Below are positions 1 through 19,618 of a DNA stretch of 62,355 bases, one piece after another. Below the pieces are notes generated by a model, which saw only the letters and a program-made list of their open reading frames with translations, was not told the DNA's origin and made no database searches. The stretch's first letter is position 1. Each line of letters begins with the position of its first letter. Source of the stretch: a virus (Duplodnaviria; Caudoviricetes); IMG/VR virus record IMGVR_UViG_3300030372_004273, positions 1 to 62,355 of that record; one strand, written 5' to 3'. The position numbers were made by a program, and so were the translations under genes.

Positions 1-1
1 C

Positions 2-78
2 TACTAAATTGCCAAAAAAATCATCTGGTTCTGGACTTACTTGTACAGACTCTTGCTCCTGTTCTTCTTCATCAGTCG
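2..78. repeat. 77-nt terminal direct repeat, copy 1 (assembly overlap of a circular or terminally redundant genome)
   Basis: TACTAAATTGCC...CATCAGTCG at 2-78 is identical to 62279-62355; base 1 (C) differs from 62278 (T). Confidence 0.95.
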
Positions 79-190
79 TTACATCTACTTCATAAAAAGC
101 ATCTTGTTGATCCTGTAGATCCATAATTTCAGCATCTGTTTCAGGAGCTCTATATAAAGCACGGTCAATGTTAGTTGGTTTCATAGCCAT
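2..190 (-). CDS. Portal protein, N-terminal 63 codons; continues across the junction into 62278..60122
   Basis: ATG at 190-188 overlaps the terL TGA; MAMKPTNIDRALYRAPETDAEIMD... stays in frame with the portal ORF after circularisation (781 aa in total). Confidence 0.88.
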   Translation of the reverse strand, partial: MAMKPTNIDRALYRAPETDAEIMDLQDQQDAFYEVDVTTDEEEQEQESVQVSPEPDDFFGNLV

Positions 191-1659
191 CAGTAATAAA
201 TCCTCTCTCTTGGTACTGGATCATCATCTTCATAATCACTTGGGTGAGTTATAAAACCACCCTCTCTAAATCTTCGTAGAGCCTGTGTCACCGTATCAAC
301 ATAATCATCATTTTCTCCTGCAGGAAATTGAGCACACTCTTCAATCACCTCTTCAGACCAACGAGACTCTGGAGCCCATACTAACCCACTTTCTAGCAAA
401 GGTGCAACAGAATTTACTCGCATGTGTTTATCGTTACCTCTACTTGGGCTGTAGTTTGTTACTGGAACTCCCGTAGCTCTTAGCTCTTGGGTCAATGGCA
501 TACCTGAAGCTTTTGCTTCTATTAATACCATTTCTGGTTCCCAGTATTTATATTCTTCATAAGATATTCTTTTTAGTTCAGGAAAGTCCCATCGTCCACG
601 CTTGGCATCAACAAGAATAATGTTTGGTGCTTCACCTTCCTCTGGATAAAAAACTCCCCAAGTTGTTATCGCACTATAATCAGCAGATTCCTTTTTGCTA
701 TATGCAGTATCATAACTCTGCATTATATATTGTAAAGGGGGTAAATCTTCCTTTTCCCATTTTTTCCACCACTCACGTTTCAAAATCGCGGCTGACTCAC
801 TAGTGGGGTTTTGTTGCCATTGGGCTTCCCATTTACCTATAGACAAACTACCCTTTACAGCTAATAAGTCTTTCTTGTTCCAAAACTCACCCCACAAAGG
901 TTCATTAGTTTCAGGCATCAAAGCAGGGAACTCAACTACTTCCCATTGGTCTGCCAATATATCTCTGCCTTGTTGCTTTAATAATTTACCAGTCAAATCA
1001 TTTTCAGCCCAACGTGTCATCACGATTACTATTGAACCTCCTGGCTGTAAACGCTGTCTAGGTCCAGAAGTGTACCACTCATACGCATTTTCCATAGCAG
1101 TTGGCGATAAAGCATCTTGTTCGGAATGTGGGTCATCAATAATTAACAAGTCAGCACCTCGCCCTGTAACAGCACCCCCGACTCCTGCGGCGAAATATTC
1201 ACCTCCTGCACTCGTCTCCCAACGTCCTGCCGCTTGAGAATCTGCTCGTAACTGGACGTTTTGAAAAACCCTTGTATACTCAGAACTATTCATCAAGTTC
1301 CTTGTTTTACGACCAAATCTAAAAGCTAACTCGGCTGTGTGTGTTGTCTGCATAATTTTTAAAGTTGGCTTACGTCCCATCAACCAAGCAGGAAGTAAGT
1401 AACTCGCAAATTCAGATTTCGTATGTCTTGGTGGCATGTTCACGATTAAACGTTTCAACTCACCACGAGCTAGGCGATTGAATTTTTCCGACATAATAGC
1501 ATGGTGTCTGCCATGTATAAAATCAGACCAAACGCTTTGTACAAAAGTAAGGAAGTCTTCTTGGCAAGCTTCAGCTTCTTGCATGGACTTTGCCCTGTCT
1601 AACAAAAGAGCAAAATTCCTCAGTTTGTCTTCAGGCAATAGAGATAAATCCATAGTCAT
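190..1659 (-). CDS. terL: Terminase large subunit
   Basis: MPPRHTKS Walker A variant, LLIIDDP Walker B, VIVMTRW coupling motif, RNase H-like nuclease (SYDTA...NDDYVDT). Confidence 0.95.
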   Translation of the reverse strand: MTMDLSLLPEDKLRNFALLLDRAKSMQEAEACQEDFLTFVQSVWSDFIHGRHHAIMSEKFNRLARGELKRLIVNMPPRHTKSEFASYLLPAWLMGRKPTLKIMQTTHTAELAFRFGRKTRNLMNSSEYTRVFQNVQLRADSQAAGRWETSAGGEYFAAGVGGAVTGRGADLLIIDDPHSEQDALSPTAMENAYEWYTSGPRQRLQPGGSIVIVMTRWAENDLTGKLLKQQGRDILADQWEVVEFPALMPETNEPLWGEFWNKKDLLAVKGSLSIGKWEAQWQQNPTSESAAILKREWWKKWEKEDLPPLQYIMQSYDTAYSKKESADYSAITTWGVFYPEEGEAPNIILVDAKRGRWDFPELKRISYEEYKYWEPEMVLIEAKASGMPLTQELRATGVPVTNYSPSRGNDKHMRVNSVAPLLESGLVWAPESRWSEEVIEECAQFPAGENDDYVDTVTQALRRFREGGFITHPSDYEDDDPVPRERIYY

Positions 1660-1821
1660 AATTTTCTTATATATCGAAAATTTTCAAACGACAATGAACC
1701 TAATGAATTATTTTGAAAAAAGGGGTATACGATTTTAATAATTTTTTGATATACCACGAATCGCGGAAAACTTGCCACGCCCAAGGACATGGCTATGAAC
1801 GTCGTCAAAAATGGTGGGTAT

Positions 1822-1854
1822 AAAAAAAGGGCGTTAGGTGTTACCCTAACGCCC
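1822..1854 (-). terminator. Rho-independent terminator of the Asp/Glu-free gene
   Basis: Perfect 10-bp stem GGGCGTTAGG/CCTAACGCCC with a 6-nt loop, followed by T7 on the minus strand, just after the stop at 1868. Confidence 0.85.
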
Positions 1855-1867
1855 CCCAAGTACCTTT

Positions 1868-2338
1868 TTATTTGGTTGTTGGTTTAACTTGCAAAGTTAT
1901 AAAACCAACGCCCCAAGTGCTACTACTAGGGCTGTAACCACCATTTAACAGTGCTAATAAACAAATTGGGTTTTTTGCACTATGCCCCAATTTACTTGCA
2001 AAGCTTAAAGCACTACCAACATTTTTAAAAGGTTGGTTGCTGTTGGTTGGGTTAGTGCCAAACAATAAAGCATTTTGTATAGTTGCCCTAACACCGTTGC
2101 CCTTGCCACCATAACCAAATGGCGTTGCAGGTTTATTTGGTGTTGGGTTGGTAACAACGTTTTTATTTGGTACTACTACAACGTTGTTAATATTACCATT
2201 GGCATGGGTGTTTATAAACGCCCATAACATTGTATTAGTTACGCCAGTTTTACCAGTACCATTATTAGTTAATACTGGTGTTTTAGTTTGGTTTGCACCT
2301 TTATTGCTAGTGCTAGCATTTTTATTATTTTGTACCAT
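1868..2338 (-). CDS. Hypothetical protein of 156 aa with no Asp or Glu; paralog of 2790..3221
   Basis: ATG at 2338 with AAAGGGG RBS-like element and its own terminator; shares PFGYGG..GVR.TIQ, KLGHS.K.P.CL.AL..GGYSPSS.TW with the neighbouring ORF. Confidence 0.88.
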   Translation of the reverse strand: MVQNNKNASTSNKGANQTKTPVLTNNGTGKTGVTNTMLWAFINTHANGNINNVVVVPNKNVVTNPTPNKPATPFGYGGKGNGVRATIQNALLFGTNPTNSNQPFKNVGSALSFASKLGHSAKNPICLLALLNGGYSPSSSTWGVGFITLQVKPTTK

Positions 2339-2750
2339 TGTACGACCCCTTTGGGTTACCACCTAAACATAATTGTTTGGGCTTGCTTATATTATTACTA
2401 TACTTTTAATATACTTGTAAATAAAAAAATTAACTCCTTGACAACTTTTTTAAGGGACATTTGTATTGAGCGTATAGGTGTAAGGGACTCTCTTATGACT
2501 GGGACAATCCTTTACCGTAATGTGGTAAGTATTAAGATTGTCAGTATAAGTATTAGTATTAAAAACATATAAGCACTATAACCCAACAATTATAATTGAG
2601 TAGTCCTTGATTTTTATATTATTATGCGGATCAAGGATTTTCCTTGATGATAAATAGTGATACTCTAAGAGTGTCAACGCTAACGTTCACACTATGACAA
2701 GTCTTGTTCTCGGGAATGGGACAGTCCCTGATTCTCTTGAATGGGATGGG

Positions 2751-2781
2751 AAAAAAGGACGCCAGACATAGCCTGACGTCC
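2751..2781 (-). terminator. Rho-independent terminator of the paralog 2790..3221
   Basis: GGACGCCAG/CTGACGTCC imperfect stem followed by a T run on the minus strand. Confidence 0.7.
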
Positions 2782-2789
2782 CGATAGTA

Positions 2790-3221
2790 CTAGCCTTTGA
2801 CAACTAGTTTGATGTATGGAGTCATCCAAGTTTTACTGCTTGGTGAGTATCCACCATGCATCAAAGCATGCAAGCAATTAGGACGTTTCTTAGAGTGACC
2901 AAGCTTGGCAGACTTATCAAGTATAAGCCTTAACGACATAGAGCCGTCAATCCCTCTAAGCATCCAATCTTGGATGGTTTGCCTGACACCTCCGGACTGT
3001 CCGCCATAACCAAAGGGGACAGGCTTTGGATCGTCAAGTTTTACATTGTCAAGAGGTTGGATGTAGACGTTCGCGTCGTTGCCTCCTGCATGCTCGTTGA
3101 CAAATTGCCACACGTCGTCATAAGACAACTCTTTATCGGTGACTAGGAGCTCAGCCTTTACAACTTGAGCTTTGGACTTTGGTGCAGTCTTGACAACTGC
3201 CTTAGTTGACTTTTTAGCCAT
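2790..3221 (-). CDS. Hypothetical protein of 143 aa; paralog of 1868..2338
   Basis: Likely start MAKKSTK at 3221 after AGAAAGGAG RBS; same conserved C-terminal blocks as the Asp/Glu-free protein. Confidence 0.88.
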   Translation of the reverse strand: MAKKSTKAVVKTAPKSKAQVVKAELLVTDKELSYDDVWQFVNEHAGGNDANVYIQPLDNVKLDDPKPVPFGYGGQSGGVRQTIQDWMLRGIDGSMSLRLILDKSAKLGHSKKRPNCLHALMHGGYSPSSKTWMTPYIKLVVKG

Positions 3222-3366
3222 ATCAATTCTCCTTTCTACGAGAATAGTGTAAATGCTTAATTGCAAGTACAAGTATAGAATAGCAAATAAAAAGTCCGGG
3301 AACAACAATAAAATGCTCCCCGATGATCTTTTTTTATCCCTGACATAGACAGTCAAGAAAAGAGAA

Positions 3367-3487
3367 TCACGGAATCAAGGATTTTCATTTCCTCTCTTCT
3401 CTCAAGGGAATCAAGGATTTTCAAGGATCAAGGAAGATCAATGAATCAAAGATCAAAGAAGATCCTTGACGAACCGATGATCAAGGA
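3367..3487. repeat. Non-coding cluster of TCAAGGA / TC-NNN-GA motifs
   Basis: TCAAGGA at 3375, 3411, 3421, 3428, 3481; reverse TCCTTGA at 3463; variants TCACGGA 3367, TCAATGA 3438, TCAAAGA 3446 and 3453. Confidence 0.85.
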
Positions 3488-3496
3488 TTCTCTCTT

Positions 3497-3943
3497 TTAG
3501 GATGGGAGAATCTTTCTCTTTCCTGAATGGGATTGATGTGATAAGATATGATGCAAGAGTCCAGTCCAATCGTAGGGAGCAGGACATGTCCAGTCAGGGA
3601 GTGGTGGCTCATCTCCCGTCAATCCTTTTCCTAATAGAAGGCTCTTGTCACCCCTAAATAAATACAAGGTGCGAGCGGAAGGGAGCTTCGCCAAGTTCCA
3701 GACTTGTCCACCATTGAGAAAATACTGGGTCTGCCACGATATTTGATGTGGACGTAGATTTAAAGACTTTAGGGACTTTAAGTTACTCACCTTTAACTCA
3801 AGCCAAAAACTTTTGCCATTTTTTATGCCATGCACATCAGGGATTCCTGGCATAGCCCATGACTCAATTCTAGTCCAAAAGACACCTAACTCCTTTGTGC
3901 CTTCTCTTAAATCTTTCCATAATTTTGTTTCGGGATTACCCAT
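3497..3943 (-). CDS. PD-(D/E)xK nuclease, VRR-NUC / Holliday junction resolvase-like
   Basis: E...RIE...PGIPDV...FWLELK...LRPHQISW motif set. Confidence 0.8.
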   Translation of the reverse strand: MGNPETKLWKDLREGTKELGVFWTRIESWAMPGIPDVHGIKNGKSFWLELKVSNLKSLKSLNLRPHQISWQTQYFLNGGQVWNLAKLPSARTLYLFRGDKSLLLGKGLTGDEPPLPDWTCPAPYDWTGLLHHILSHQSHSGKRKILPS

Positions 3944-3999
3944 AAAGAAAAGATAACAAGGTGCAACAGGATTTGCTACACCTTATTTATCTTGTTTAA

Positions 4000-4248
4000 T
4001 CAGCAGGAAGTGACCTCATATAAAGGTGCATCTTCTTCAAAATACTTGCCATGACCATACATTTCTTTTGCTATCTTTCTAACAGTTTTTGTCCATGAAC
4101 TTTCAACACCATCAGCATAAATTTCCTCGCCATCTTCTCCATATACGACTAGTACATTGCTGTCTTCTTGAAGGTCACCATAACAATAAACATCGTGTTT
4201 CTCACCTTTGTCATCTGTATAAGTGACTTTACATTTATAATCGCCCAT
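4000..4248 (-). CDS. Hypothetical protein
   Basis: Acidic 82-aa ORF with AAGGAG RBS and AT-rich upstream region. Confidence 0.7.
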   Translation of the reverse strand: MGDYKCKVTYTDDKGEKHDVYCYGDLQEDSNVLVVYGEDGEEIYADGVESSWTKTVRKIAKEMYGHGKYFEEDAPLYEVTSC

Positions 4249-4323
4249 AATTAGCTCCTTAAAAATAGTTATTAATTAATTTATACTAATAATATAATAA
4301 AAGATTTTATGGTGGACTACTCT

Positions 4324-4893
4324 TTAATTATCTTTTGTTATCTGGTTTTTATGTTCTATAATTAAGTTATCTTGAGTTACTGCTTTGAGTGCAGGAAACT
4401 CATTTTGGAGTCGTTGAATTTCTTTCATAACTTCCTCCTTACTCATTTGATCTATCTTTCCATGCAGTATCTCTTTACGATCAATATAAAGTCCTGCCGC
4501 TTGACCTCTGCTTTTTTCAGCCGCGACTGCTGATGCGAAGTTCCCTGCTGTGATTGCCTGATCGCGAATTTCCGCGAGTTTTTTTACATGACCTTCAAAA
4601 GTCACTTCATATTTCTGTGCTAACTCTTGTTTGATTTCACGTATTCGCTCTACAACATGAGGGTAACGTCTGCCATCTAACAACTGCGAAGCAATAGCAT
4701 GAGCAGATGCGACTGAATATCCTGCACGAATCGCGGCTTCGGTCTGGGTTATGTCTTCACAAACATACAATCTAGCAAATTCTTCTTGCTTTGGAGTAAT
4801 TTGTTTTTCTTTACGAGGATTTGCAACTACATCAAGTTTTTCTTTGTGTGTTTTCTTTGCGAGTACCATAGATACTTTATATAATAGTACCAA
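4324..4893 (-). CDS. terS: Terminase small subunit (start may be 4869)
   Basis: ITPKQEEFARLY...TQTEAAIRAGYS...ASQLL HTH signature of TerS. Confidence 0.88.
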   Translation of the reverse strand: MVLLYKVSMVLAKKTHKEKLDVVANPRKEKQITPKQEEFARLYVCEDITQTEAAIRAGYSVASAHAIASQLLDGRRYPHVVERIREIKQELAQKYEVTFEGHVKKLAEIRDQAITAGNFASAVAAEKSRGQAAGLYIDRKEILHGKIDQMSKEEVMKEIQRLQNEFPALKAVTQDNLIIEHKNQITKDN

Positions 4894-4930
4894 ATGATAT
4901 TAAAGTAAAAAATTAAAGGGCGTCCTGTTT

Positions 4931-4952
4931 TTTCCCAGAAAGCCCCGAAAGT
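4931..4952. repeat. 22-nt dispersed intergenic repeat, copy 1
   Basis: TTTCCCAGAAAGCCCCGAAAGT is identical to 25948-25969. Confidence 0.85.
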
Positions 4953-5074
4953 AGAATAAAATATACAATCTTGCCACTAACTCATTGTTATTGTTAGATA
5001 GCAAGATATTGTATATTATGGATTGTGTAAAAACGATTTTACACTTTTATGAATTTACCTTCTATATAGTAAAG

Positions 5075-5284
5075 TTATCTGTCTTGTAATGCTTTTGTGA
5101 CAGCTTCTTCTACCATCTTTGGCGTTTCATCAAATACTGCTTTGCATTTTATCAAATACGAAACAGTATTATTTAAGCTCAAAGTGGTGAATCCAAGTTC
5201 CTTGCACAATTTGTCACGACATATTTTTAATTCATTCAATACGTCAGTTTCAAGTGCTACGACTCGTTTTTCAATATCAGCCAT
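5075..5284 (-). CDS. Small putative ribbon-helix-helix-like DNA-binding protein
   Basis: Start MADIEK after GGAGG RBS; beta-alpha-alpha pattern ending NTVSYLIK, similar to 6967..7179. Confidence 0.55.
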   Translation of the reverse strand: MADIEKRVVALETDVLNELKICRDKLCKELGFTTLSLNNTVSYLIKCKAVFDETPKMVEEAVTKALQDR

Positions 5285-5501
5285 TTTTACCTCCTTCCTG
5301 AAAATTTTGGTCCCACATTCTTGCATAGTAGTCAACTAATCGTAGTTGTTCTCCAGTAATTTTATTTGTCACTTTTTGTTTTTCCCCACACGGAGGGCAA
5401 AACTCCAACCAGTCATTATCATTGAGTATAAGTATGTCGGTATCGGTTTTTTCCTCACAAAAGCTACATCTATTTCCCATTTTGTTTCTCCCATTTATCA
5501 A
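5277..5501 (-). CDS. Small Zn-ribbon-like protein (start possibly 5480)
   Basis: CSFC...CPPC pairs; coupled to neighbouring genes. Confidence 0.6.
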   Translation of the reverse strand: MINGRNKMGNRCSFCEEKTDTDILILNDNDWLEFCPPCGEKQKVTNKITGEQLRLVDYYARMWDQNFQEGGKNG

Positions 5502-5676
5502 TTTGGATTAACAGATTTTTTGCACATTCATATCTGCCTTTACATATATCTCCCGTGCCGTCGGACAATACTTCTACTCCGTCAACCACGCCTTGCCAAG
5601 TTTCAATTTCCTCCTGCAACCAAGTTTTCGTTAGTTCTAGTACAGGGACTTCAGCACATTTAGCAAACTTACTCAT
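5470..5676 (-). CDS. Hypothetical protein
   Basis: ATGA overlap with the upstream ORF. Confidence 0.65.
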   Translation of the reverse strand: MSKFAKCAEVPVLELTKTWLQEEIETWQGVVDGVEVLSDGTGDICKGRYECAKNLLIQIDKWEKQNGK

Positions 5677-6008
5677 GCTGACACCACTTTTTGAGTAACG
5701 TAATCAATTCTAGCTAAGTGATCTAAACGAGCACCACAAGCAAGTCTTTGGTTGACCCATTCCTCATGCTCTTGAATAATATCTTCAAAAGTTGTTTTAC
5801 GCTCAACTTCTGTATAACTATCACGCCAAGCTCTCATGTGGACATCAGGTTCACACTGATGCCATCCATTACTAGACATACATTCTGTATAATATACAGT
5901 AGTGAGAAGTACCTTAGGAGATTGCTGTAAGTCCTCAGGTTTAGGGACAGCTAATATATAACCACGATTAGCTTTATATTCTGTCACACTAGGTAAATAA
6001 TTTTCCAT
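5673..6008 (-). CDS. Hypothetical protein
   Basis: AAGGA RBS; first gene left of a divergent AT-rich intergenic region. Confidence 0.7.
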   Translation of the reverse strand: MENYLPSVTEYKANRGYILAVPKPEDLQQSPKVLLTTVYYTECMSSNGWHQCEPDVHMRAWRDSYTEVERKTTFEDIIQEHEEWVNQRLACGARLDHLARIDYVTQKVVSA

Positions 6009-6213
6009 TTTAATATCCTTTCATTATTATTAAAAATTAAATATATATTATAAGTATACACATTATTTATCTTTAATATACCAGTATTTTATCTTTTGTT
6101 TTCAAGGAGTTGACCAGTCTAATCAAGGAAAATAAAGGACTAAAAAAGAAGTGTCTTAGTATATAATACATATATATTTAATATAACGTTAACAATTAAC
6201 AAGGAGACATCAA

Positions 6214-6573
6214 ATGTCGTACAATCCAGTAATTAATAATAATCGTTACTCACTTTTTATGGACGTCGTTAGCCGTATACATGACGTCGCAAAATATTAT
6301 GAGGGTCAAGGTAACGAGTTATCCCAATTAAACTTTGGTGGTAAGGAAGTCCACCCAAACGTAGCAGTTTGGCATATTGACGACCTCCAACAAATGACCA
6401 TCGTACACTCACCAGTTCAACCAATGCCGTTGGCAAGTAGTGTTGAGGTCTTTTTAACCAACTGGAATAATGATGATGTCAAGCCAGACACAATCAAAAC
6501 TTGGTACATTTACGAACCTCAGCATGTGGAAGATTTTCATAGTTGGGTCGTTGAGGAATATCTAAAAACTTAA
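6214..6573 (+). CDS. Hypothetical early protein
   Basis: AAGGAG RBS, TATAAT upstream and its own terminator. Confidence 0.8.
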   Translation: MSYNPVINNNRYSLFMDVVSRIHDVAKYYEGQGNELSQLNFGGKEVHPNVAVWHIDDLQQMTIVHSPVQPMPLASSVEVFLTNWNNDDVKPDTIKTWYIYEPQHVEDFHSWVVEEYLKT

Positions 6574-6579
6574 ATCAAG

Positions 6580-6611
6580 TAAGGCATGGTTTTGACTGTG
6601 CCTTATTTTTT
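6580..6611 (+). terminator. Rho-independent terminator
   Basis: TAAGGCATGG/CTGTGCCTTA stem (G-U pairs) followed by a T run. Confidence 0.75.
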
Positions 6612-6642
6612 AACTTAGCTTGGTCAAGGAAAACAAAGGATT

Positions 6643-6666
6643 ACAAAAGACTTTATACTTGATTAT
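6643..6666 (+). promoter_or_regulatory. Conserved 24-nt upstream element, copy 1
   Basis: ACAAAAGACTTTATACTTGATTAT recurs exactly on the minus strand at 10951-10974; both lie about 50-55 nt upstream of a start codon in the sense orientation. Confidence 0.75.
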
Positions 6667-6715
6667 GTAGCTTGTATATTATTAGTATATTTCAACAATT
6701 AGTAAAGGTGATGTC

Positions 6716-6970
6716 ATGTCTCATAAATTTTATACTTTTGTGTCTTTATGTAAGCTCACTAAAAGTTTAGTAGCTGTCTATGCTTCAAATGATTTAAGTG
6801 ATGCTGAACTCAAAAAAATGAGGGGTATGTTAAAAAGTGAACGCAGTTATAATCACAAATACCCTAACTTGATTTATAAATGGATTGGTACAGTAAGTCA
6901 AGATCAAGTGCGTAAAACTCCTTATAATTTACTGTTAAATGGGAACGTCATTTACGGCTCACAATCATGA
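6716..6970 (+). CDS. Hypothetical protein
   Basis: AAAGGTG RBS; ATGA overlap with the next gene. Confidence 0.7.
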   Translation: MSHKFYTFVSLCKLTKSLVAVYASNDLSDAELKKMRGMLKSERSYNHKYPNLIYKWIGTVSQDQVRKTPYNLLLNGNVIYGSQS

Positions 6971-7179
6971 GTGAGGTTAAACAAAAAGCTACTCGCAGGA
7001 GTATGTATAATAAAATTACGCATAAAGATATTCCTACTACACAAATTGGTATTAAGGATCCAAAAACAATAGAAGATTTAACATATATCAAAGGTTGTAT
7101 AGAGGAAGAAACGGGATTAGTGGTTAGTTATCAAAATACAGTTAACTATCTTATCAAGTATTACTTAGCCGAGACATAA
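6967..7179 (+). CDS. Small putative ribbon-helix-helix-like protein
   Basis: TTQIGI followed by two helices ending NTVNYLIK; resembles 5075..5284. Confidence 0.55.
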   Translation: MSEVKQKATRRSMYNKITHKDIPTTQIGIKDPKTIEDLTYIKGCIEEETGLVVSYQNTVNYLIKYYLAET

Positions 7180-7188
7180 AATTTTAAG

Positions 7189-7217
7189 TTGGAGGGCTAT
7201 ACGTCCTCCAATTTTTT
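7189..7217 (+). terminator. Rho-independent terminator
   Basis: TTGGAGG/CCTCCAA stem followed by a T run after the stop at 7179. Confidence 0.75.
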
Positions 7218-7389
7218 ATACCTAGCCTGGTCAAGGAATATCCAAGTTCCTTGGTTTTTGGCAATTTTTGGCTTGTTTGATTAAAATTAAGACTGTTTTA
7301 AAGCCCTTCAGACAGTCACAAATGTGTTTTAGGTAGTAAACTAACCCAAAATATTTTGACTATTTTAGCTAAATTGATTGTTTTTGGTC

Positions 7390-7417
7390 AAAAAAAGCCC
7401 CCAGTCTAAGACTGGGG
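7390..7417 (-). terminator. Rho-independent terminator
   Basis: CCCCAGTC/GACTGGGG stem with a T run on the minus strand, downstream of 7483..7812. Confidence 0.75.
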
Positions 7418-7482
7418 AGAGGAAAAAATAAAATCACTTTTAAATATATCTTGGGAGAAATATTGTGTTAATTTACTCTAAC

Positions 7483-7812
7483 TCATTTTCTGCCGAGGAG
7501 CCAATCAAAAAATGAGATTCCTGGAATGTTTTTTCTTTTCTTAGCGAGTACAGGACGGAGTGTGACGGTTGCTTCTTTGATGTTACGTTTAACTCTAGAT
7601 GGCTCTACATGTTTAATTGCTTTTTTAATTTCCCTTTGCAAATCTTTTCCTCTGTTAGAATGGGATCTATTTGGGTTAAGATTATAGAGTATGTAGTAAA
7701 GCTGTCCTGCTTTAAGACCTTCCTCTTTAGCTAACTGCTTCAAAGTAATGTTTTCATTAGCGTTTCTTTTGTGAACTCTTGCAACTAATTTTGAATCGTA
7801 TTTAGATTTCAT
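7483..7812 (-). CDS. Basic helix-turn-helix protein
   Basis: ITLKQLAKEEGLKAGQLYYILY HTH-like pattern; AGGAG RBS. Confidence 0.6.
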   Translation of the reverse strand: MKSKYDSKLVARVHKRNANENITLKQLAKEEGLKAGQLYYILYNLNPNRSHSNRGKDLQREIKKAIKHVEPSRVKRNIKEATVTLRPVLAKKRKNIPGISFFDWLLGRK

Positions 7813-7905
7813 AAGTTTCTCCTATTTATTTTGGTGGAGAAAGATAGGCTAAAACATATCCAGCGAGGAAACATTTGAGAGTTTTGCCTATCCCTCTCCA
7901 TAACT

Positions 7906-15128: not shown

Positions 15129-15429
15129 TAACTGTTCCTTGCCTAATTAACTCTGCTTCAACTAACATTAAATAACGCCTGAGATCACGCACATCGTCGA
15201 TAATACCTTCTTTACGTTTGTCGGCTTGGGCTGATTTAAATATATCGTAGTGTTTATCCTCTACTTGTTTTTCTAGCCTGTCCCATTTACGAGCAAGCAT
15301 CATAAAAGCACCTACACCTCCTCGTTGTTTCCAACTATCGCCGTAGCTTTGCTCAGACACATGTAGCCCTTCAACATCATACAAGGCTACTCTTTCTACA
15401 ATTTTAATAATTTCACTTGGGTTTTTCAC
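15094..15429 (-). CDS. Nucleotide-modification-associated all-alpha (MazG/DUF1599-like) putative dNTP pyrophosphatase
   Basis: SYGDSWK.RG...RKWDRLE...DDVRDL..Y helical motif; adjacent to the thymidylate synthase homolog. Confidence 0.65.
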   Translation of the reverse strand: MKNPSEIIKIVERVALYDVEGLHVSEQSYGDSWKQRGGVGAFMMLARKWDRLEKQVEDKHYDIFKSAQADKRKEGIIDDVRDLRRYLMLVEAELIRQGTVSDYPKHSKQTR

Positions 15430-16603
15430 TTTTTCTGCCTTTCTTTGGTTTTATTGGATCATATAACTTTCTAGTTATCCACTCTACGCAAGCTTTTCTC
15501 CACGCTAGATCTTTAATGCTCTTTGCTGATTCTAGTGCATGGTATCTACCTCCTTCCCAAGCTTCTTTGTGTACTTCTTTTTGGTGTCTGTTTAAAAACA
15601 AACCCCACTCTTCTTTTTCGAATGTTTCTTTTTTACTTTCATCCTTATAAAAAGTATGAATTTCTCTAAAGTCAGCCATCTTTGCTCTTTTGTAATTAAA
15701 GTAACATTCCAACATGGGGACAGCTACCTCAGAAAAAATAGAGTTTTCAAACTGTACCTTTTTTAATTCATCTAAAACATCATACGTTTCTTTATCGTCC
15801 CATATTTTGAAAAAAGTATTTAACTCATCATCAAAAGTTGTAAACGAATCCATTATAGGCATTGGGTTATAACTCGTACCATCTTCACCTAAAGTTAAGT
15901 AAGGCTCGTAGTCTGGTGGCATATCTTTTAATCTTTCTAGTATATCAACATAAGCGTGAAGATTATTACTAAATTGAGTATAAGTACCAACACCTAACTC
16001 TAACCTTCCTGCAAAGTATTCTTGAAGCATAGACATGTGAACAGCGTTTGCACCATACGCTCCCCAAATTAAATCATTACTACGATTTACTACTGTCATG
16101 TTAAGTAGGTCTTTTCTTTCACTAAAAAATATTTGAGTATTACATGGGTAGTCTTTACCATTGTTTGTTTCAACTAAATCTTTTACTGGATCCCACATTG
16201 TTAAAACTGTACGTCTGTCGTTTGGAAAAGAAAGCAACCTTTCTATTACTCTATCAAACTGATCATAGCCAAACCATTTTCTCCACCTATAACCATAAGC
16301 ACCATGATACGTTATACCATCGTCTGAGTATTGGTTCATGCGTCCATTAAAAGTATTTACAAACTGCACGTCATTACGTCCTGCTAACATCCATAAACTT
16401 TCCATAAAATGGAAAAAAGGGTTAGCGTCCCGTTGTGGATAAAACAATACTCTTTCTCTTGGGTGAGTATAAGTAGTGGTAACTGGACCAGGAAACTCTA
16501 AAACATCACCACCACGAGTACTTACAGCTACCCCATTCTCTTCTAAGGACTGTTTTACTACAAAAAGTGCTTCGCTTACGTTCCTAACATAAAAATTATA
16601 CAT
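15413..16603 (-). CDS. Thymidylate synthase-fold dUMP hydroxymethylase-like protein
   Basis: NPFFHFMESLWMLAGRND, GAYG.RWR, DYPCN catalytic Cys, RSNDLIWGAYGAN (Asn at the base-specificity position, indicating dUMP), NNLHAY, plus a C-terminal extension ending WRKACVEWI. Confidence 0.82.
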   Translation of the reverse strand: MYNFYVRNVSEALFVVKQSLEENGVAVSTRGGDVLEFPGPVTTTYTHPRERVLFYPQRDANPFFHFMESLWMLAGRNDVQFVNTFNGRMNQYSDDGITYHGAYGYRWRKWFGYDQFDRVIERLLSFPNDRRTVLTMWDPVKDLVETNNGKDYPCNTQIFFSERKDLLNMTVVNRSNDLIWGAYGANAVHMSMLQEYFAGRLELGVGTYTQFSNNLHAYVDILERLKDMPPDYEPYLTLGEDGTSYNPMPIMDSFTTFDDELNTFFKIWDDKETYDVLDELKKVQFENSIFSEVAVPMLECYFNYKRAKMADFREIHTFYKDESKKETFEKEEWGLFLNRHQKEVHKEAWEGGRYHALESAKSIKDLAWRKACVEWITRKLYDPIKPKKGRKSEKPK

Positions 16604-16682: not shown

Positions 16683-17990
16683 TTAAACGGAGTCATTTTT
16701 TGGCTCTATTGGGTCAATATTAAAAAACTGCAAGTTTTTATTACATTTTTGAAAAACTAGGTCATCTACTTCACCTTTGTCTGTTTTTTCATAACCACCA
16801 TTAATAAAGTCAATATATTTTTGTGCTACATTTACTTTATCAAACTGAGGTAAAATCTGTTTTCCGTTTTCTTGCAACTTTAACCACCTGACTTTTACTG
16901 TTACAGCATCGTCTACTATGTCTGCAAATTCTTGAGGAGTAGAATCGTGTGGTATTTGAATATAGTTTTGTTTATCACCCTGACTATGAAAAGGATGTTT
17001 TACTTTTTGAGATGAAGTTATCATACCTAAGTCTGTTGCCATTGGAACAGCACCACAAATAATCGCTTCTACAGTTGTTCTATTAAAATGGGATCCGAAC
17101 CCTGAATATTTAACCGACCAACTTGGATCAATTTGTACACGAGCGTTTTTTAAAATAGAAAAAACTTTTTCGTTTGGTAAAACTCCTGCATAATGCATTC
17201 CGTGTTCTAAAGCATTATCCCAAATACGAGTACCATCAGGTTCAAAGTACTTTTCTTTACACTTATCTTTACTTGTCATGTACCTATATTCAATCCCTGC
17301 TCCACCAACTATTTTGCTTTGCTCATTTTTCATATAAGAGATTGCTCTTACTAAAGTATCCATACGTTTCCAAGCTTTGAATATTTGTACTGCAACCAAA
17401 CCAGTCCTTTCTTCAAATGAATTTAAGTTTTCTTGGGTAACATCAAAAGGGTTACATATCATAGTGCGAGGTAAATCCATTTTAGCAGAAGATTCATAAG
17501 CTGAGTTATGTACACAAACAGAGCCGATAAAGTGTTTTGAAACTTTTGCTAAGTGAGGATACAAATGAGGTAAGTTACCATCATGTATGATAGCTATGTT
17601 TTTAGTTCCATTATCATAAAGTTCTAACCACTCCTTAACACCTTCATTATCTTTATTTAACGTAGGTACTGGAATATGCCAAAGGACAGCATCATACTTA
17701 CCCATATCATGCACAAAGTTTTTTCTATGGTAAGAACTTAGATATGGTATCTTTGGTACTCTAATCCAACCTCTTGCTTGGTGGTGTGGATATCCAGTAC
17801 CTTCAAGCTTTGTAGTGTATTCCCTTATATCTTTAGGTAGCTTTCGCATAGGAGTATACTTGTCTCTAGGGATAAGCATACGGAAATCAACTTCATGTCC
17901 TAACTCTTTTAGCCCTTGAGCTAAAAACTCTACATGATTTATAATACCACCATAATCTTGAATCTGATACATTGTCATAAGTATTCTCAT
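16683..17990 (-). CDS. GT-B fold glycosyltransferase (GT4-like), putative DNA-modifying
   Basis: MRILM...YGGI..H...LA.GL..LGHEV N-terminus; KAWKR.D.LVRA; TTVEAIICGAVPMATD donor-binding segment. Confidence 0.8.
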   Translation of the reverse strand: MRILMTMYQIQDYGGIINHVEFLAQGLKELGHEVDFRMLIPRDKYTPMRKLPKDIREYTTKLEGTGYPHHQARGWIRVPKIPYLSSYHRKNFVHDMGKYDAVLWHIPVPTLNKDNEGVKEWLELYDNGTKNIAIIHDGNLPHLYPHLAKVSKHFIGSVCVHNSAYESSAKMDLPRTMICNPFDVTQENLNSFEERTGLVAVQIFKAWKRMDTLVRAISYMKNEQSKIVGGAGIEYRYMTSKDKCKEKYFEPDGTRIWDNALEHGMHYAGVLPNEKVFSILKNARVQIDPSWSVKYSGFGSHFNRTTVEAIICGAVPMATDLGMITSSQKVKHPFHSQGDKQNYIQIPHDSTPQEFADIVDDAVTVKVRWLKLQENGKQILPQFDKVNVAQKYIDFINGGYEKTDKGEVDDLVFQKCNKNLQFFNIDPIEPKNDSV

Positions 17991-18910
17991 AGTACTGCTC
18001 CCTCAGGTGGTTTTTGGAAAAGGTCATCTTGCTTACCATTATATCTACTTCGTGGTTTACCCTCCCCATTTTTTACTCGTATATACTTATCAAACTCACA
18101 AAGGCTATGTTCAATGGTTCGCATATCTACTTGGTCTTTTGGACCAAACCTAAAAGGCAAATGATCTTGAGCTTCGTATAATAGAGTTTGCATTTCTAAG
18201 TTAGCTTGAGTTTGTGAAAGCGACTTTTTTAAATCTCTCTTGTATAACCTATTCAGTCCCCTCTTTGCTCCTGGTCCTGCGTTAGCCCAAGTATAACGGT
18301 CTTTTGCCGTCCCCAAAACAGACGTGTAGTTGAGGTCGGTAACGACTTCGTATGACATAAAGCCTCCCCCTCCCCATCCCCTAAACTTACCCATCGCTTC
18401 ATGCGTGGCTTGTAACGACTGCGTTTCTTGGGATACCTTCGCCAGATCTTCTTTCGCTTTCCATATCGGGATGAGAAACTCATCTACAACAACCTCAGAT
18501 TTAGGTTTCTTTATACCTTGATTAGTAATTATATATGCTCCAGTAAAAGTTCGTAAACCTTCGTGTAACCTTTTTTCTAAAATAAATTTAGTTGATTCAG
18601 GTTCCCAATCTTTTACCCAACCATGCTCTTCAGCAAACTCACTTGTACCTATCATTCTAAACAAACAACAGTTAAATATAATTTCAGCAGGAGGACGATT
18701 GTCATTTGGTTTAGTCCAGTTCTGACGCATCCAAACTGTTACCCTATCATTTTCCCTAAACGGATTTGTAAATTTATAATCCCTTAATATGGGGTCGTAA
18801 GTCCAAGGAGGAGGCTTTCCTGCACTCCTCACTTTGAACATGTTATGGCGTTCATCTATCCAATAGAAAAACTTTTCAACCATACTTTCATCTAATAACT
18901 CACTAACCAT
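17987..18910 (-). CDS. 5hmdU DNA kinase-like protein (aGPT-Pplase1, helical glycosylase-like fold)
   Basis: FFYWIDERH...PPPWTYDPILRDYKFTNPFRENDRVT, FTGAYII, FMSYEVVTDL, GPGAKRGL, IEHSLCEFDKY.R. Confidence 0.85.
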   Translation of the reverse strand: MVSELLDESMVEKFFYWIDERHNMFKVRSAGKPPPWTYDPILRDYKFTNPFRENDRVTVWMRQNWTKPNDNRPPAEIIFNCCLFRMIGTSEFAEEHGWVKDWEPESTKFILEKRLHEGLRTFTGAYIITNQGIKKPKSEVVVDEFLIPIWKAKEDLAKVSQETQSLQATHEAMGKFRGWGGGGFMSYEVVTDLNYTSVLGTAKDRYTWANAGPGAKRGLNRLYKRDLKKSLSQTQANLEMQTLLYEAQDHLPFRFGPKDQVDMRTIEHSLCEFDKYIRVKNGEGKPRSRYNGKQDDLFQKPPEGAVL

Positions 18911-19541
18911 TTGCAGGACGCAACTCTATAGCTTTAGCTTCTATAGCTATCTTAACATCTTTTAAACTTCCAGGAGAAGGATTTAAGTTTCTTAGCTTAT
19001 CTAAAGCTTCTGCCAAGTTTTTAGATTCTAGTATTACTTGTTGGTTGCGATGTCTGTTAGTGCCAACTTTAGGAGTTGGCTCCTTTACCAAAGCTACAAT
19101 TACATCGCTAGGATCAAACCCATTACTACTCTTGGGTTGAGTTACTTTTGGTTTTTCTTCATTTACTTCCATTTTGTTCTCCACAATTTGATTGATATAT
19201 TGGTCTGAATATAGTTTTGCTTTTTTCTTTACGAGTGAATGTAAAGCCAAGCATGAAGTATTATGGTTAGGGAATCCTTTATTATTGTCCCATCTACCAC
19301 CTTCTATTTCGGCACAATCCTTCAGACCAAAGGACTGCCAAATAGAATCAATTAATTCTTTGCTATAATTTTCTTTTAAACTTTCAAGGCTATCGTCGTT
19401 GTACACAACTAGATTACAAAGCATTTCTGGATGAGCCAATACACCCATCGCTTTAGAAGCTACTCGTAAATCTTTAAATTTATAAAACAAAAAAGGTGGA
19501 CCATCACTTCCTGGAACACCATCGCTAATAACATAAAACAT
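18903..19541 (-). CDS. Hypothetical protein heading the modification operon
   Basis: Likely start MFYVISDG at 19541 after GAAAGGG; overlaps the kinase-like gene. Confidence 0.7.
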   Translation of the reverse strand: MFYVISDGVPGSDGPPFLFYKFKDLRVASKAMGVLAHPEMLCNLVVYNDDSLESLKENYSKELIDSIWQSFGLKDCAEIEGGRWDNNKGFPNHNTSCLALHSLVKKKAKLYSDQYINQIVENKMEVNEEKPKVTQPKSSNGFDPSDVIVALVKEPTPKVGTNRHRNQQVILESKNLAEALDKLRNLNPSPGSLKDVKIAIEAKAIELRPANG

Positions 19542-19570
19542 ATATTTCCCTTTCTTTGGAAAATTAAGTA

Positions 19571-19597
19571 ATGCCCCTATTCTAATAATAGGGGCAT
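19571..19597. terminator. Stem-loop after the DUF932 gene (terminator or processing site)
   Basis: Perfect 11-bp stem ATGCCCCTATT/AATAGGGGCAT. Confidence 0.6.
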
Positions 19598-19618
19598 CAC
19601 AGGACAACAGTTATTTTA

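What the first reader, a model, noticed from the sequence alone, without database searches (positions are those of the whole stretch)
1806..2435. A whole transcription unit purged of the TC/GA dinucleotide: candidate modification-free bootstrap gene
Seen: reading base by base, 1806-2344 (539 nt) contains no TC and no GA, so neither strand has a TpC. There is one GA at 2344-2345 and then none until 2435. A rough composition-based expectation is about 60. The purge covers the upstream region, RBS (AAAGGGG rather than the AAGGAG used elsewhere), ORF and terminator. The 156-aa product therefore has no Asp or Glu, and uses Ser only as AGY, Phe only as TTT, and no GGA/AGA/CGA. Because both strands, synonymous sites and non-coding flanks are affected, selection must act on the DNA, not on protein charge. 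Established: restriction-resistance patterns of 5hmdU-hypermodifying phages (M6, ViI, PhiW-14) implicate T in TG/TC contexts as the modified positions. Inference: this phage places a bulky group at TpC and keeps this one gene unmodified so host RNA polymerase can read it at once; the product may then license expression or protection of the modified genome. Alternative: escape from a host TC-targeting defence (DarT-type ADP-ribosylation, TC-preferring deaminase or nuclease) on first-entering DNA.
Basis: partly seen in the sequence, partly recalled or inferred. Interest (0 to 1): 0.97.

Follow-up and report, generated by a model that had tools for sequence, protein, structure and literature searches.

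The report
Phage gene purged of TC/GA steps
An uncultured marine phage that carries thymine-modification genes keeps one small, self-contained gene completely free of the DNA step TC/GA, giving up all aspartate and glutamate in its protein, most likely so that this stretch alone stays ordinary unmarked DNA.

Summary
Window 1806-2344 has no TC or GA, and after one GA the run continues to 2435. The longest such gap elsewhere in this 62-kb genome is 60 nt.

The zone is one minus-strand transcription unit: predicted promoter, leader hairpin, GA-free ribosome site, a 156-aa protein without Asp or Glu, and a terminator. It is the downstream copy of a tandem paralog pair; the upstream copy is compositionally normal.

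The purge recurs in relatives at 41-58% protein identity and 36-57% GC. It is always GA/TC and always this gene, and it is actively maintained.

Two results are new here:
- Sense-strand GA (that is, template-strand TC) is depleted in every downstream copy, while sense-strand TC is purged only in some lineages.
- Genome-wide, CCWGG survives almost only as TCCWGGA, which marks TpC independently as a protected DNA context.

A 5-hmdU DNA kinase is present in 14 of 14 near-complete genomes that carry the family, including 5 unpurged ones.

Best reading (0.5): the unit is kept free of a TpC-directed thymidine hypermodification. The "bootstrap" role is untested. This scan noted the same phenomenon earlier on other DNA. 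My paper searches found nothing in print.

The parts
1806..2435 (.). TC/GA-free zone, 630 nt, with a single GA at 2344-2345 (a TC on the sense strand 6 nt upstream of the ATG)
   Evidence: runs of 539 and 91 nt; the next longest in the genome is 60 nt. Close relatives L001, L002 and L003 have uninterrupted runs of 629, 628 and 846 nt.
1868..2338 (-). Copy 2: a 156-aa basic protein with 0 Asp/Glu and 12 Lys + 1 Arg, of no known family or fold
   Evidence: No Pfam, PHROG or NCBIfam match. AF2 model has pLDDT 76 and pTM 0.73. No PDB or BFVD fold match with E below 2.
1816..1857 (-). Intrinsic terminator of copy 2: a 13-bp stem followed by a T run, free of TC/GA
2346..2352 (-). GA-free ribosome-binding site AAAGGGG, 7 nt before the ATG
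   Evidence: Copy 1 has AAAGGAG at the same place.
2362..2381 (-). Leader hairpin in the predicted 5' UTR
   Evidence: An analogous hairpin precedes the ribosome site in other purged lineages (by eye).
2392..2434 (-). Predicted sigma-70-like promoter inside the free zone: A/T-rich upstream stretch, -35 TTTACA (2416-2421), 18-nt spacer, -10 TAATAA (2392-2397)
   Evidence: Read by eye. This is an inference and no transcription start is known. My stricter consensus scan did not list it.
2790..3221 (-). Copy 1: the normal paralog, 143 aa, 47% identical to copy 2, with 13 Asp+Glu and 52 TC/GA (44.7 expected)
2756..2782 (-). Terminator of copy 1, which makes copy 2 a separate transcription unit
17987..18910 (-). 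5-hmdU DNA kinase
   Evidence: PF18723, E 5.7e-53. It is 37-38% identical to the kinases of Pseudomonas M6-like phages.
15413..16603 (-). Thymidylate-synthase homolog, a candidate dUMP hydroxymethylase
   Evidence: PF00303, E 3.2e-18. phrog_5131, E 1.2e-106. Substrate chemistry was not tested.
16683..17990 (-). 435-aa ORF of no known family between the synthase homolog and the kinase; a variable slot present in 8 of 11 complete genomes
18903..19607 (-). 234-aa ORF of no known family next to the kinase, present in 10 of 11 genomes

Best explanation
The phages of this lineage most likely hypermodify thymine in the TpC context. The route would be 5-hmdU made by the thymidylate-synthase homolog, then activation on DNA by the 5-hmdU DNA kinase, then tailoring by enzymes not yet identified.

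One self-contained transcription unit, the downstream copy of a tandem paralog pair for a small basic protein, has been recoded so that no TpC exists on its template strand. In most lineages none exists on the other strand, the promoter or the terminator either. That stretch therefore cannot carry the mark, and its template reaches RNA polymerase as ordinary DNA whatever the state of the rest of the genome.

The price is every GA and TC: all Asp and Glu, four Ser codons, the preferred C-ending codons, and the GGAG ribosome site.

What is shown:
- the purge itself, its conservation and its active maintenance;
- its strand asymmetry;
- that TpC is a special DNA context genome-wide;
- that the family co-occurs with the kinase.

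What is inferred:
- that the mark sits on T of TpC;
- that the benefit is unobstructed, or attack-proof, transcription of this one gene.

What is unknown: what the protein does and when it is made.
For: 1. The two missing dinucleotides are reverse complements of each other, and the purge spans the predicted untranscribed promoter.
- In the window the zone starts 14 nt upstream of the -35 element.
- In a 57% GC relative, 110 nt upstream of the gene are free where the mean gap is 7.3 nt. In a 56% GC relative the whole zone is 1,158 nt with a single GA.

2. It is always GA/TC and always this gene.
- In 81 loci, only the GA/TC class among the 10 classes gives extreme runs.
- In each of 8 complete genomes the gene is the only low-density ORF.
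- Among 66 distinct downstream copies, 31 have no TC, 12 have 1-14, and 23 have 15 or more.

3. The purge is maintained by ongoing selection. Seven purged clades carry at least 707 substitutions. About one third of random substitutions would create GA or TC, yet their 22 sequences hold 12 GA/TC in total.

4. The template strand comes first. By synonymous resampling, observed/expected values are:

| Gene class | non-Asp/Glu sense GA | sense TC |
|---|---|---|
| Downstream copies with normal TC | 0.32 | 1.34 |
| Copy 1 | 0.74 | 1.54 |

- Five lineages have sense GA = 0 with TC 6-23.
- In near-free genes the residual GA count equals the Asp+Glu count.

5. An independent genome-wide sign, from a codon-aware null over 11 genomes:

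| CCWGG sites | Observed | Expected |
|---|---|---|
| 5' T on neither strand | 3 | 266 |
| 5' T on one strand | 112 | 217 |
| 5' T on both strands (TCCWGGA) | 225 | 48 |

- CCWGG and CCSGG are the top outliers among 48 palindromic cores, and the effect is absent in control phage PAE1.
- The 28 purged zones hold 0 CCWGG against 35.8 expected.
- The genome has no C5, N6/N4 or D12 methyltransferase.

6. The kinase is present in 14 of 14 genomes that are at least 90% complete and carry the family.

7. Literature:
- TG/TC is implicated for M6, ViI and PhiW-14 (PMC6449724, sections 10 and 19).
- A phage thymine dioxygenase strongly prefers NTC (PMC13229309, passages).
- Bulky major-groove groups block bacterial RNA polymerase, probably at initiation (PMC4838386, abstract).
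- Template-strand and non-template-strand uracil modifications act differently on T7 RNA polymerase (PMC11550810, abstract).
Against: - No modification has been measured. None of these phages is cultured, and the family is absent from 50,697 phage records.
- All other genes, including structural ones, are full of template-strand TC and must still be expressed. A hypermodified T therefore cannot be an absolute block, and no reason is shown why this gene alone needs protection.
- 5 of 14 kinase-bearing genomes have an unpurged downstream copy. Three of them (G008-G010) show the same TCCWGGA signature.
- Cassette gene content does not separate purged from unpurged genomes.
- PAE1, a kinase-bearing cultured phage, needs no such gene.
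- In two fully purged lineages (L005, L047) one or two GA/TC sit inside the predicted promoter spacer or ribosome site.
- Co-occurrence with the kinase may be shared descent only, because all genomes are syntenic relatives.
- Promoters and transcription starts are predictions only.
Confidence: 0.5

Rival explanations
1. RNase-proof message. The mRNA is kept free of GA, and in many lineages also of UC, so that a dinucleotide-specific endoribonuclease cannot cut it. The nuclease could be a phage shut-off enzyme or a host abortive-infection or collateral RNase. This one protein would then still be made when other messages are destroyed.
For: - Sense-strand GA depletion is the universal and primary feature.
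- The ribosome site is rebuilt without GA, and a leader hairpin and a strong terminator are present. These are features of a stable, highly translated message.
- Total removal, at the cost of all Asp and Glu, suggests that every single site is harmful, as it would be for cleavage sites.
Against: - The second purged dinucleotide is the exact reverse complement of the first. That is unexplained for an RNA target.
- The purge usually covers the predicted untranscribed promoter and the stretch upstream of it.
- TpC is independently marked at the DNA level by the TCCWGGA pattern.
- No RNase family was seen among the 35 window ORFs that I scanned. Many small ORFs were not scanned.
Confidence: 0.15
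2. Escape from a host weapon that acts at TC on DNA. Candidates are DarT-type ADP-ribosylation of T in TNTC, a TC-preferring deaminase, or a nuclease. The gene would stay readable, and it may encode the countermeasure.
For: - Lesions on the template strand stop RNA polymerase while those on the other strand mostly do not, which fits the asymmetry.
- The unit is self-contained, with its own promoter and terminator.
Against: - The rest of each genome is rich in TC.
- TC-flanked CCWGG is actually enriched 4.7-fold, so TC appears beneficial rather than dangerous.
- The purge is conserved from 36 to 57% GC, hence probably across many hosts.
- Where an unpurged sister gene has TC, the purged gene has TT in only 37 of 190 cases. 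It has GC in 35, TA in 31 and CC in 19. There is therefore no deaminase footprint.
- The DarT motif is recalled from memory and comes from no call.
Confidence: 0.12
3. Self-immunity to its own product. The family protein would read the TC step or the modified T and coat or silence DNA. Its gene lacks the sites, so it keeps being expressed while everything else is shut down.
For: - The protein is small and very basic, with no acidic residues, and the unit carries signals suggesting high expression.
- The family is found only in kinase-bearing genomes, 14 of 14.
- In about half of the purged loci, GA/TC-dense repeats abut the zone.
Against: - A duplex-binding reader would see TC/GA in either orientation, yet lineages exist with sense GA = 0 and 16-23 sense TC.
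- There is no DNA-binding fold and no known fold of any kind.
- Copy 1 of the same family is full of sites.
Confidence: 0.1
4. A cis-acting DNA element that must stay unmodified, such as a packaging-recognition site, an origin or a recombination site between terS and terL. The coding capacity would be incidental.
For: - The zone sits in the packaging module between the small and large terminase genes in all relatives.
- C-rich conserved motifs follow the terminator.
Against: - The borders of the zone track the promoter and the terminator of one gene.
- The open reading frame and 21 invariant residues are conserved down to about 40% identity.
- The purge is asymmetric with respect to the direction of transcription.
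- Unpurged lineages package DNA without it.
Confidence: 0.08
5. A mutational by-product, such as hypermutation of a duplicated gene, or an assembly artefact.
For: The gene is a duplicate, and Asn and Lys are frequent where the paralog has Asp and Glu.
Against: - The replacement spectrum is broad.
- The state is maintained through at least 707 substitutions.
- It is seen on independent contigs from many samples. The first 6 kb of the window is held by runs from 13 studies, of which study P1 includes the run that may be the window's own source.
Confidence: 0.01

Closest known systems
[quoted passage not shown]
   Same: - A thymidylate-synthase homolog, a 5-hmdU DNA kinase (PF18723) and a family-A polymerase lie clustered together.
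- The kinase is 37-38% identical to those of M6-like phages.
- The literature reports partial, sequence-dependent modification with TG/TC implicated (PMC6449724, sections 10 and 19; PMC5889632, passages).
   Different: - None of those papers, in the parts I read, describes a motif-free gene.
- The M6-like phage PAE1 has no dinucleotide-free stretch.
- The tailoring enzymes here match no known family.
- The modified base of this phage is unknown.
Restriction-site avoidance in phage genomes
   Same: A short sequence is removed by selection at synonymous sites. These same genomes also show classical avoidance: unflanked CCWGG is about 100-fold depleted, and TGGCCA occurs once against 91 expected.
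   Different: - The target is a non-palindromic dinucleotide.
- The purge is confined to one transcription unit rather than spread over the genome.
- It costs two amino acids.
- It probably avoids the phage's own mark and not a host enzyme.
Messages that escape sequence-specific mRNA interferases (ACA-less transcripts and MazF); recalled, no call
   Same: A whole message lacks a short motif, so it survives when others are cut.
   Different: Here the reverse complement is purged too, together with predicted untranscribed flanks, and no cognate RNase is known.
Unmethylated CpG islands in methylated vertebrate genomes; a conceptual analogy, recalled
   Same: Both are an island of unmarked DNA around a promoter and gene in a genome that is otherwise marked at a dinucleotide.
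   Different: CpG islands keep the target dinucleotide and exclude the enzyme. This island removes the target itself.
NTC-specific phage thymine dioxygenase 5mYOX97 (O'Toole et al. 2026, PMC13229309; passages read)
   Same: It shows that a phage enzyme can select T in the TpC context for the first step of hypermodification.
   Different: It belongs to a different enzyme family and route (oxidation of T on DNA). The only 2OG-Fe(II) oxygenase in this window is an AlkB-like protein that is unique to this genome.

Membership tests
5-hmdU-derived thymidine hypermodification system (M6/ViI type) | 5-hmdU DNA kinase | tested here: met
   PF18723, E 5.7e-53, covering 278 of 281 profile positions. Present in 14 of 14 near-complete relatives.
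5-hmdU-derived thymidine hypermodification system (M6/ViI type) | dUMP hydroxymethylase (a thymidylate-synthase homolog that makes 5-hmdUMP) | tested here: inconclusive
   The synthase fold is present (PF00303, phrog_5131). Hydroxymethylase versus methylase chemistry cannot be read from these matches.
5-hmdU-derived thymidine hypermodification system (M6/ViI type) | Amino acid:DNA transferase or another known tailoring enzyme | tested here: not met
   The two ORFs flanking the kinase (435 and 234 aa) match no Pfam, PHROG or NCBIfam family.
5-hmdU-derived thymidine hypermodification system (M6/ViI type) | Hypermodified thymidine present in virion DNA | not testable with these tools
   There is no isolate. 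Only contig-level public runs were available.
Restriction-site avoidance | Genome-wide depletion of a palindromic or otherwise R-M-type site | tested here: not met
   TC/GA is at 0.93 and 0.82 of expectation genome-wide and is absent only from one 630-nt unit.
mRNA-interferase-resistant transcript | Motif missing from the transcribed strand only, within the transcript | tested here: not met
   In the window both strands and the predicted promoter are purged. The feature is met only in five partly purged relatives.
7-deazaguanine DNA modification (DpdA type; the GA context is recalled for phage CAjan, of which only the search listing of PMC7544227 was seen) | tRNA-guanine-transglycosylase-family DpdA gene | tested here: not met
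   PF01702 has 0 matches in the genome, while the control rings in 14 of 14 reference genomes.
Deaminase-driven hypermutation (TC to TT) | TC replaced predominantly by TT, and GA by AA | tested here: not met
   TT in 37 of 190 TC positions, and AA in 11 of 53 GA positions.
Any described protein family or fold for the product | Significant sequence or structure match | tested here: not met
   Pfam, PHROGs and NCBIfam: 0 matches. PDB sequence profile: 0 matches. Foldseek against PDB and BFVD: best E 2.0 and 4.0.

The most novel reading that the evidence does not exclude
The TC/GA-free unit is a hard-wired pioneer gene. Its template carries no hypermodified thymine, so it would be the one gene that host RNA polymerase can read at full rate from the injected, fully marked genome, or from a genome under attack by a modification-dependent defence. 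Its abundant basic product would then make the marked genome usable or safe. The normal paralog would do the same job later, from freshly replicated and not yet marked DNA. This would mean that phage DNA hypermodification carries a transcriptional cost large enough to reshape a protein's amino-acid alphabet.
Probability: 0.2. Interest if true: 0.95.

Novelty: categorically new. Interest (0 to 1): 0.9.

Why it matters
- The sequence context of thymidine hypermodification was stated to be unknown in 2018 (PMC5889632) and had only been inferred from restriction patterns by 2019 (PMC6449724). Here two independent genomic footprints point to TpC, read from sequence alone: a TpC-free gene, and CCWGG tolerated only as TCCWGGA.
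- The gene provides a built-in negative control for mapping the modification in viromes.
- It shows that a DNA mark can dictate protein composition. A whole protein family has lost Asp and Glu repeatedly.
- It implies that hypermodified DNA has a cost or a vulnerability during gene expression that phages must engineer around. That cost is directly testable with native versus recoded templates.
- The protein family has no known fold or function, and it is confined to kinase-bearing phages.

Tried and rejected
**Function and family of the protein**
- Pfam, PHROGs and NCBIfam gave no match.
- A PDB sequence profile search gave no match.
- Foldseek on the AF2 model against PDB and BFVD gave no match.
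- The ESM Atlas returned only unnamed viral clusters.

**Relatives among cultured phages and cells**
- tblastn against 50,697 phage records found nothing, with window copy 1 or with the two copies of the 57% GC relative L114.
- megablast of the first 6 kb found nothing.
- A scan of 185,579 prokaryote species genomes found no relative.

**Gene content as a predictor of the purge**
- All-against-all clustering of ORFs from 11 complete genomes found no gene family that separates the 8 purged from the 3 unpurged genomes. The exceptions were short ORFs of doubtful reality.
- The kinase cassette is alike in both groups.

**Alternative chemistries**
- There is no TGT/DpdA gene.
- There is no C5, N6/N4 or D12 DNA methyltransferase.
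- A deaminase origin is rejected by the replacement spectrum.

**First-entering DNA**
- The window is a circular permutation broken next to terL, so its ends say nothing.
- In the only relative with terminal repeats (G010, which is unpurged) the pair lies at 18.2-19.5 kb of 55.5 kb.

**Expression**
- No RNA holder was listed for the stretch.
- Two metatranscriptome runs from a sample that holds the phage DNA were laid. One gave three short contig pieces, all on terL, and the other gave nothing. This says nothing about copy 2.
- One DNA run had no contig cover over 1801-2800. A hole in contigs is not a finding.

**Other attempts**
- A consensus promoter scan of the whole genome returned only noise and did not list the promoter I read by eye.
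- Residual TC contexts in partly purged genes (n = 33) lean towards TCA, at 58% against 30%. This is too few to refine the motif.
- Rfam (1-8000, E up to 0.1) and a tRNA scan found nothing.
- The 5' T test on 4-mer palindromes with a trinucleotide null was noisy, since AATT, AGCT and TTAA also deviate. I rely on the codon-aware version instead.

**Print searches**
- Searches found no description of a dinucleotide-free gene in a modified phage.
- The library omits most subscription journals.
The supplementary tables of Flodman 2019 and the SI of O'Toole 2026 may bear on the context claims.
Full report
**1. The observation**

The window is the entire record, one contig of 62,355 bp. It holds 6,450 TC+GA with a mean spacing of 9.7 nt. 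Positions 1806-2344 (539 nt) have none. After one GA at 2344-2345, another 91 nt up to 2435 have none. The next longest gap anywhere in the genome is 60 nt, and no other strand-symmetric dinucleotide class behaves like this.

The zone holds a minus-strand gene at 1868-2338 for a 156-aa protein with no Asp or Glu.

Controls that keep the protein show that the purge is not a side effect of protein composition:
- Synonymous resampling with the genome's codon usage gives a mean of 28.9 GA+TC, with a minimum of 13 in 20,000 samples.
- Shuffling the order of the real codons gives a mean of 14.1 at codon boundaries, and never 0 in 20,000 shuffles.

Among 57 minus-strand ORFs of at least 100 aa, the gene is the only outlier.

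**2. Anatomy**

On the minus strand the order is: small terminase (4324-4893), a VRR-NUC-like nuclease (3497-3943), copy 1 (2790-3221), copy 2 (1868-2338), large terminase (190-1659).

Copy 1 and copy 2 are 47% identical. Copy 1 has 13 Asp+Glu and 52 TC/GA against 44.7 expected.

Each copy ends in its own hairpin terminator. Upstream of copy 2, by eye, lie these elements:
- an A/T-rich stretch;
- a -35 TTTACA, an 18-nt spacer and a -10 TAATAA;
- a leader hairpin;
- the ribosome site AAAGGGG.

All of these are free of GA and TC. Copy 1 has AAAGGAG at the corresponding place. The promoter is a prediction only.

**3. Relatives**

Two protein searches and one profile search over 1.84 billion representatives found about 100 family clusters. 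None is named. Their Asp+Glu counts are mostly either 7 or more, or 0-2, with a few in between.

Two scans of IMG/VR fetched 120 loci. The findings were:
- The tandem arrangement of a normal copy followed by a second copy is conserved.
- In the first 81 loci, GA/TC is the only one of the ten classes with extreme runs.
- Eleven distinct first-scan loci have a downstream copy with 0 GA and 0 TC. Their free runs are 537-846 nt long. They reach 6-147 nt upstream of the ATG and 62-88 nt past the stop.
- Of 66 distinct downstream copies in tandem loci, 31 have no TC, 12 have 1-14, and 23 have 15 or more.
- The purge also occurs at high GC. L114 (57% GC) has 1 GA and 0 TC where 61 are expected. L115 (56% GC) has a 1,158-nt zone with a single GA.
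- In each of the eight complete genomes with a purged copy, that copy is the only ORF of low TC/GA density.

**4. Selection, not mutation**

Within seven purged clades the aligned unit (gene plus 60-70 nt flanks) carries at least 707 substitutions. One third of random substitutions would create GA or TC, yet the 22 sequences together hold 12.

Where an unpurged sister gene has TC, the purged gene has TT in 37 of 190 cases, GC in 35, TA in 31, CC in 19, and TG and AG in 16 each. Both letters are replaced, so this is not a deaminase footprint.

On a FastTree of 130 proteins, 51 of 53 copy-1 rows form one well-supported clade. The purged state needs at least 9 changes on supported branches. Purged and unpurged genes are repeatedly sisters. 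The tree rests on few columns and is rooted at the midpoint only, so I make no claim about the ancestral state.

**5. Strand asymmetry**

Counts per 100 codons:

| Gene class | NGA | G\|A codon boundary | TC |
|---|---|---|---|
| Copy 1 | 2.36 | 5.48 | normal |
| Downstream copies with normal TC | 0.53 | 1.60 | at copy-1 level |
| Downstream copies with TC = 0 | 0.06 | 0.00 | 0 |

Controlling for protein sequence and local codon usage gives these observed/expected values:

| Gene class | non-Asp/Glu sense GA | sense TC |
|---|---|---|
| Copy 1 (25 genes) | 0.74 | 1.54 |
| TC-unpurged downstream copies (12 genes) | 0.32 | 1.34 |

Five lineages have sense GA = 0 with 6-23 sense TC. In near-free genes the remaining GA are exactly the Asp and Glu codons.

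So the constraint common to all is on sense-strand GA, which means TC on the template strand. The constraint on the other strand is added in some lineages. A duplex-symmetric reader does not explain this. A process tied to transcription does.

**6. Is TpC special elsewhere in these genomes?**

I followed a lead from an earlier first-stage note on this genome (e1-6291659). The test asked whether restriction-type palindromes depend on a 5' T. The null was codon-aware: synonymous resampling of ORFs of at least 120 aa in 11 complete genomes.

| Site class | Observed | Expected |
|---|---|---|
| CCWGG, T-flanked on neither strand | 3 | 266 |
| CCWGG, T-flanked on one strand | 112 | 217 |
| CCWGG, T-flanked on both strands (TCCWGGA) | 225 | 48 |
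| CCSGG, T-flanked on neither strand | 1 | 113 |
| CCSGG, T-flanked on both strands | 32 | 18 |

Further results:
- In the window, 23 of 40 CCWGG sites are TCCWGGA and only one is unflanked.
- The flanked sites are Pro-Gly codon pairs, NNT-CCW-GGA, all in one phase. The signal therefore lies in the synonymous choice of the neighbouring letters.
- In an unbiased scan of 48 palindromic cores, CCWGG and CCSGG are the top outliers.
- The control phage PAE1 shows no such effect for CCWGG: observed/expected 1.01, 1.03 and 1.79.
- The pattern holds in all 11 genomes, including the three with an unpurged copy.
- The genome has no DNA methyltransferase of the three main families.
- The 28 purged zones contain 0 CCWGG against 35.8 expected.

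The simplest reading is that a T directly 5' of C carries something that shields an adjoining site, and that the TC-free unit, lacking it, must avoid the site outright. This is an inference. No modification was measured.

**7. Link to the modification genes**

The window encodes a thymidylate-synthase homolog, a 5-hmdU DNA kinase (PF18723, E 5.7e-53), two adjoining ORFs of no known family, and a family-A polymerase.
- The kinase is found in 14 of 14 genomes that are at least 90% complete and carry the protein family. Nine of these have a purged or nearly purged copy and five an unpurged one.
- Seven fragments, 20-45% complete, gave no match, which says nothing.
- Cassette content does not separate the states.
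- PAE1, which has the kinase but not the family, has no dinucleotide-free stretch.
- There is no DpdA.

**8. Literature**
- Flodman 2019 (PMC6449724; abstract, sections 10 and 19) infers TG/TC as the modified context in M6, ViI and PhiW-14.
- Lee 2018 (PMC5889632; passages) states that the conversion is sequence-specific and that the motifs are not yet known.
- O'Toole 2026 (PMC13229309; passages) shows a phage thymine dioxygenase with a strong NTC preference.
- Raindlova 2016 (PMC4838386; abstract) reports that bulky major-groove groups block bacterial RNA polymerase, probably at initiation.
- Gracias 2024 (PMC11550810; abstract) reports strand-dependent effects of phage-type uracil modifications on T7 RNA polymerase.
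- Nine searches found no description of a motif-free gene in a modified phage.

**9. Reading**

The evidence best fits a transcription unit kept free of a TpC-directed thymidine mark, with the template strand as the critical strand (confidence 0.5).

Weaknesses:
- The mark is unmeasured.
- All other genes tolerate template-strand TC.
- Five kinase-bearing genomes do without the purge.
- The protein's role and timing are unknown.

Rivals are an RNase-proof message (0.15), escape from a host TC-directed weapon (0.12), self-immunity to a TC-reading product (0.10), a cis element (0.08), and mutation or artefact (0.01).

**10. Earlier notes of this scan**

A word search returned 55 earlier findings in at least 45 genomes, of which I saw the top eight. 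All eight describe GA/TC-free islands or gene units, on other genomes. These are unchecked AI notes and are not counted as support. They show that the phenomenon was met before on other DNA.
- the graded and strand-asymmetric nature of the purge;
- the substitution and replacement-spectrum tests;
- the kinase tally including unpurged genomes;
- the negative control in PAE1;
- the codon-aware TCCWGGA result.

Noticed in passing
whole window; TCCWGGA at 7520, 12560, 12764, 18970, 19510, 19803, 22539, 29291, 29579, 30836, 32714, 33332, 33842, 36504, 36827, 38540, 43173, 53441, 54694, 58134, 60672, 61212, 61407: CCWGG occurs almost only as TCCWGGA. In the window, 23 of 40 sites are flanked on both strands and 1 is unflanked. 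In 11 genomes, 3 unflanked sites are seen against 266 expected, and 225 doubly flanked against 48 expected. The flanked sites are NNT-CCW-GGA (Pro-Gly) in one codon phase.
   Followed up: yes
11 related genomes (G000-G010), coding regions: TGGCCA (GGCC flanked by T and A) is almost absent, at 1 observed against 90.9 expected under the codon-aware null. Other GGCC sites are only 2-3-fold depleted. This may reflect a separate restriction pressure.
   Followed up: no
L139, L072, L046, L075, L145, L138-L142, L114, L115: the 100 nt upstream of the free zone: In about 12 of 25 purged loci the zone abuts a stretch with twice the background density of GA/TC (17-24 per 100 nt). These are often short repeats such as GATGAGGAT, runs of TCA, or spaced GATC. 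The window itself does not show this, with 3 per 100 nt because its run is interrupted only once.
   Followed up: partly
downstream of copy 2 in many loci (for example L008, L014, L138, L005, L146); window 1700-1810: A C-rich tract of the type CCCCACCCCC follows the terminator inside the free zone. It is followed by a conserved block containing TCTTCGAG about 100-130 nt past the stop, just before terL. Its function is unknown. A Rho-type site or a packaging signal are guesses.
   Followed up: no
L005, L017, L007, L119, L013: upstream of the -35 element: Three phased copies of GTTAAAAAAA (A-tracts about 10 nt apart) precede the predicted -35 of copy 2, like an UP element.
   Followed up: no
L115:3679-4837: In a 56% GC relative without a copy 1, the free zone is 1,158 nt with one GA. 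It extends about 390 nt beyond the family gene and holds a further 69-aa ORF at 4518-4727.
   Followed up: partly
G007 (L060 and L062): This 60-kb contig begins and ends inside copy 2, and the two end copies differ (3 against 4 GA). This suggests an assembly break at strain variation in this gene.
   Followed up: no
window 16683-17990 and the same slot in G001, G004 and G006: The slot between the synthase homolog and the kinase is variable. The 435-aa ORF is present in 8 of 11 complete genomes and replaced by other DNA in three. This does not track the purge state.
   Followed up: partly
window 9459-10121: An AlkB-like 2OG-Fe(II) oxygenase (PF13532, E 3.1e-19) is present only in this genome among the 11 compared.
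   Followed up: no
copy 1 genes of all loci: Copy 1 is enriched in sense-strand TC relative to synonymous expectation (observed/expected 1.54), as are unpurged downstream copies (1.34). This is probably a preference for C-ending codons, which the purge overrides.
   Followed up: no
Pseudomonas phage PAE1 (L153 and L154): In this M6-like control, the palindromes most enriched for T flanks begin with G: GTAC observed/expected 0.61, 1.11 and 3.11, and also GAWTC and GATC. This is weakly in line with a TpG context for that phage group. Counts are small.
   Followed up: no
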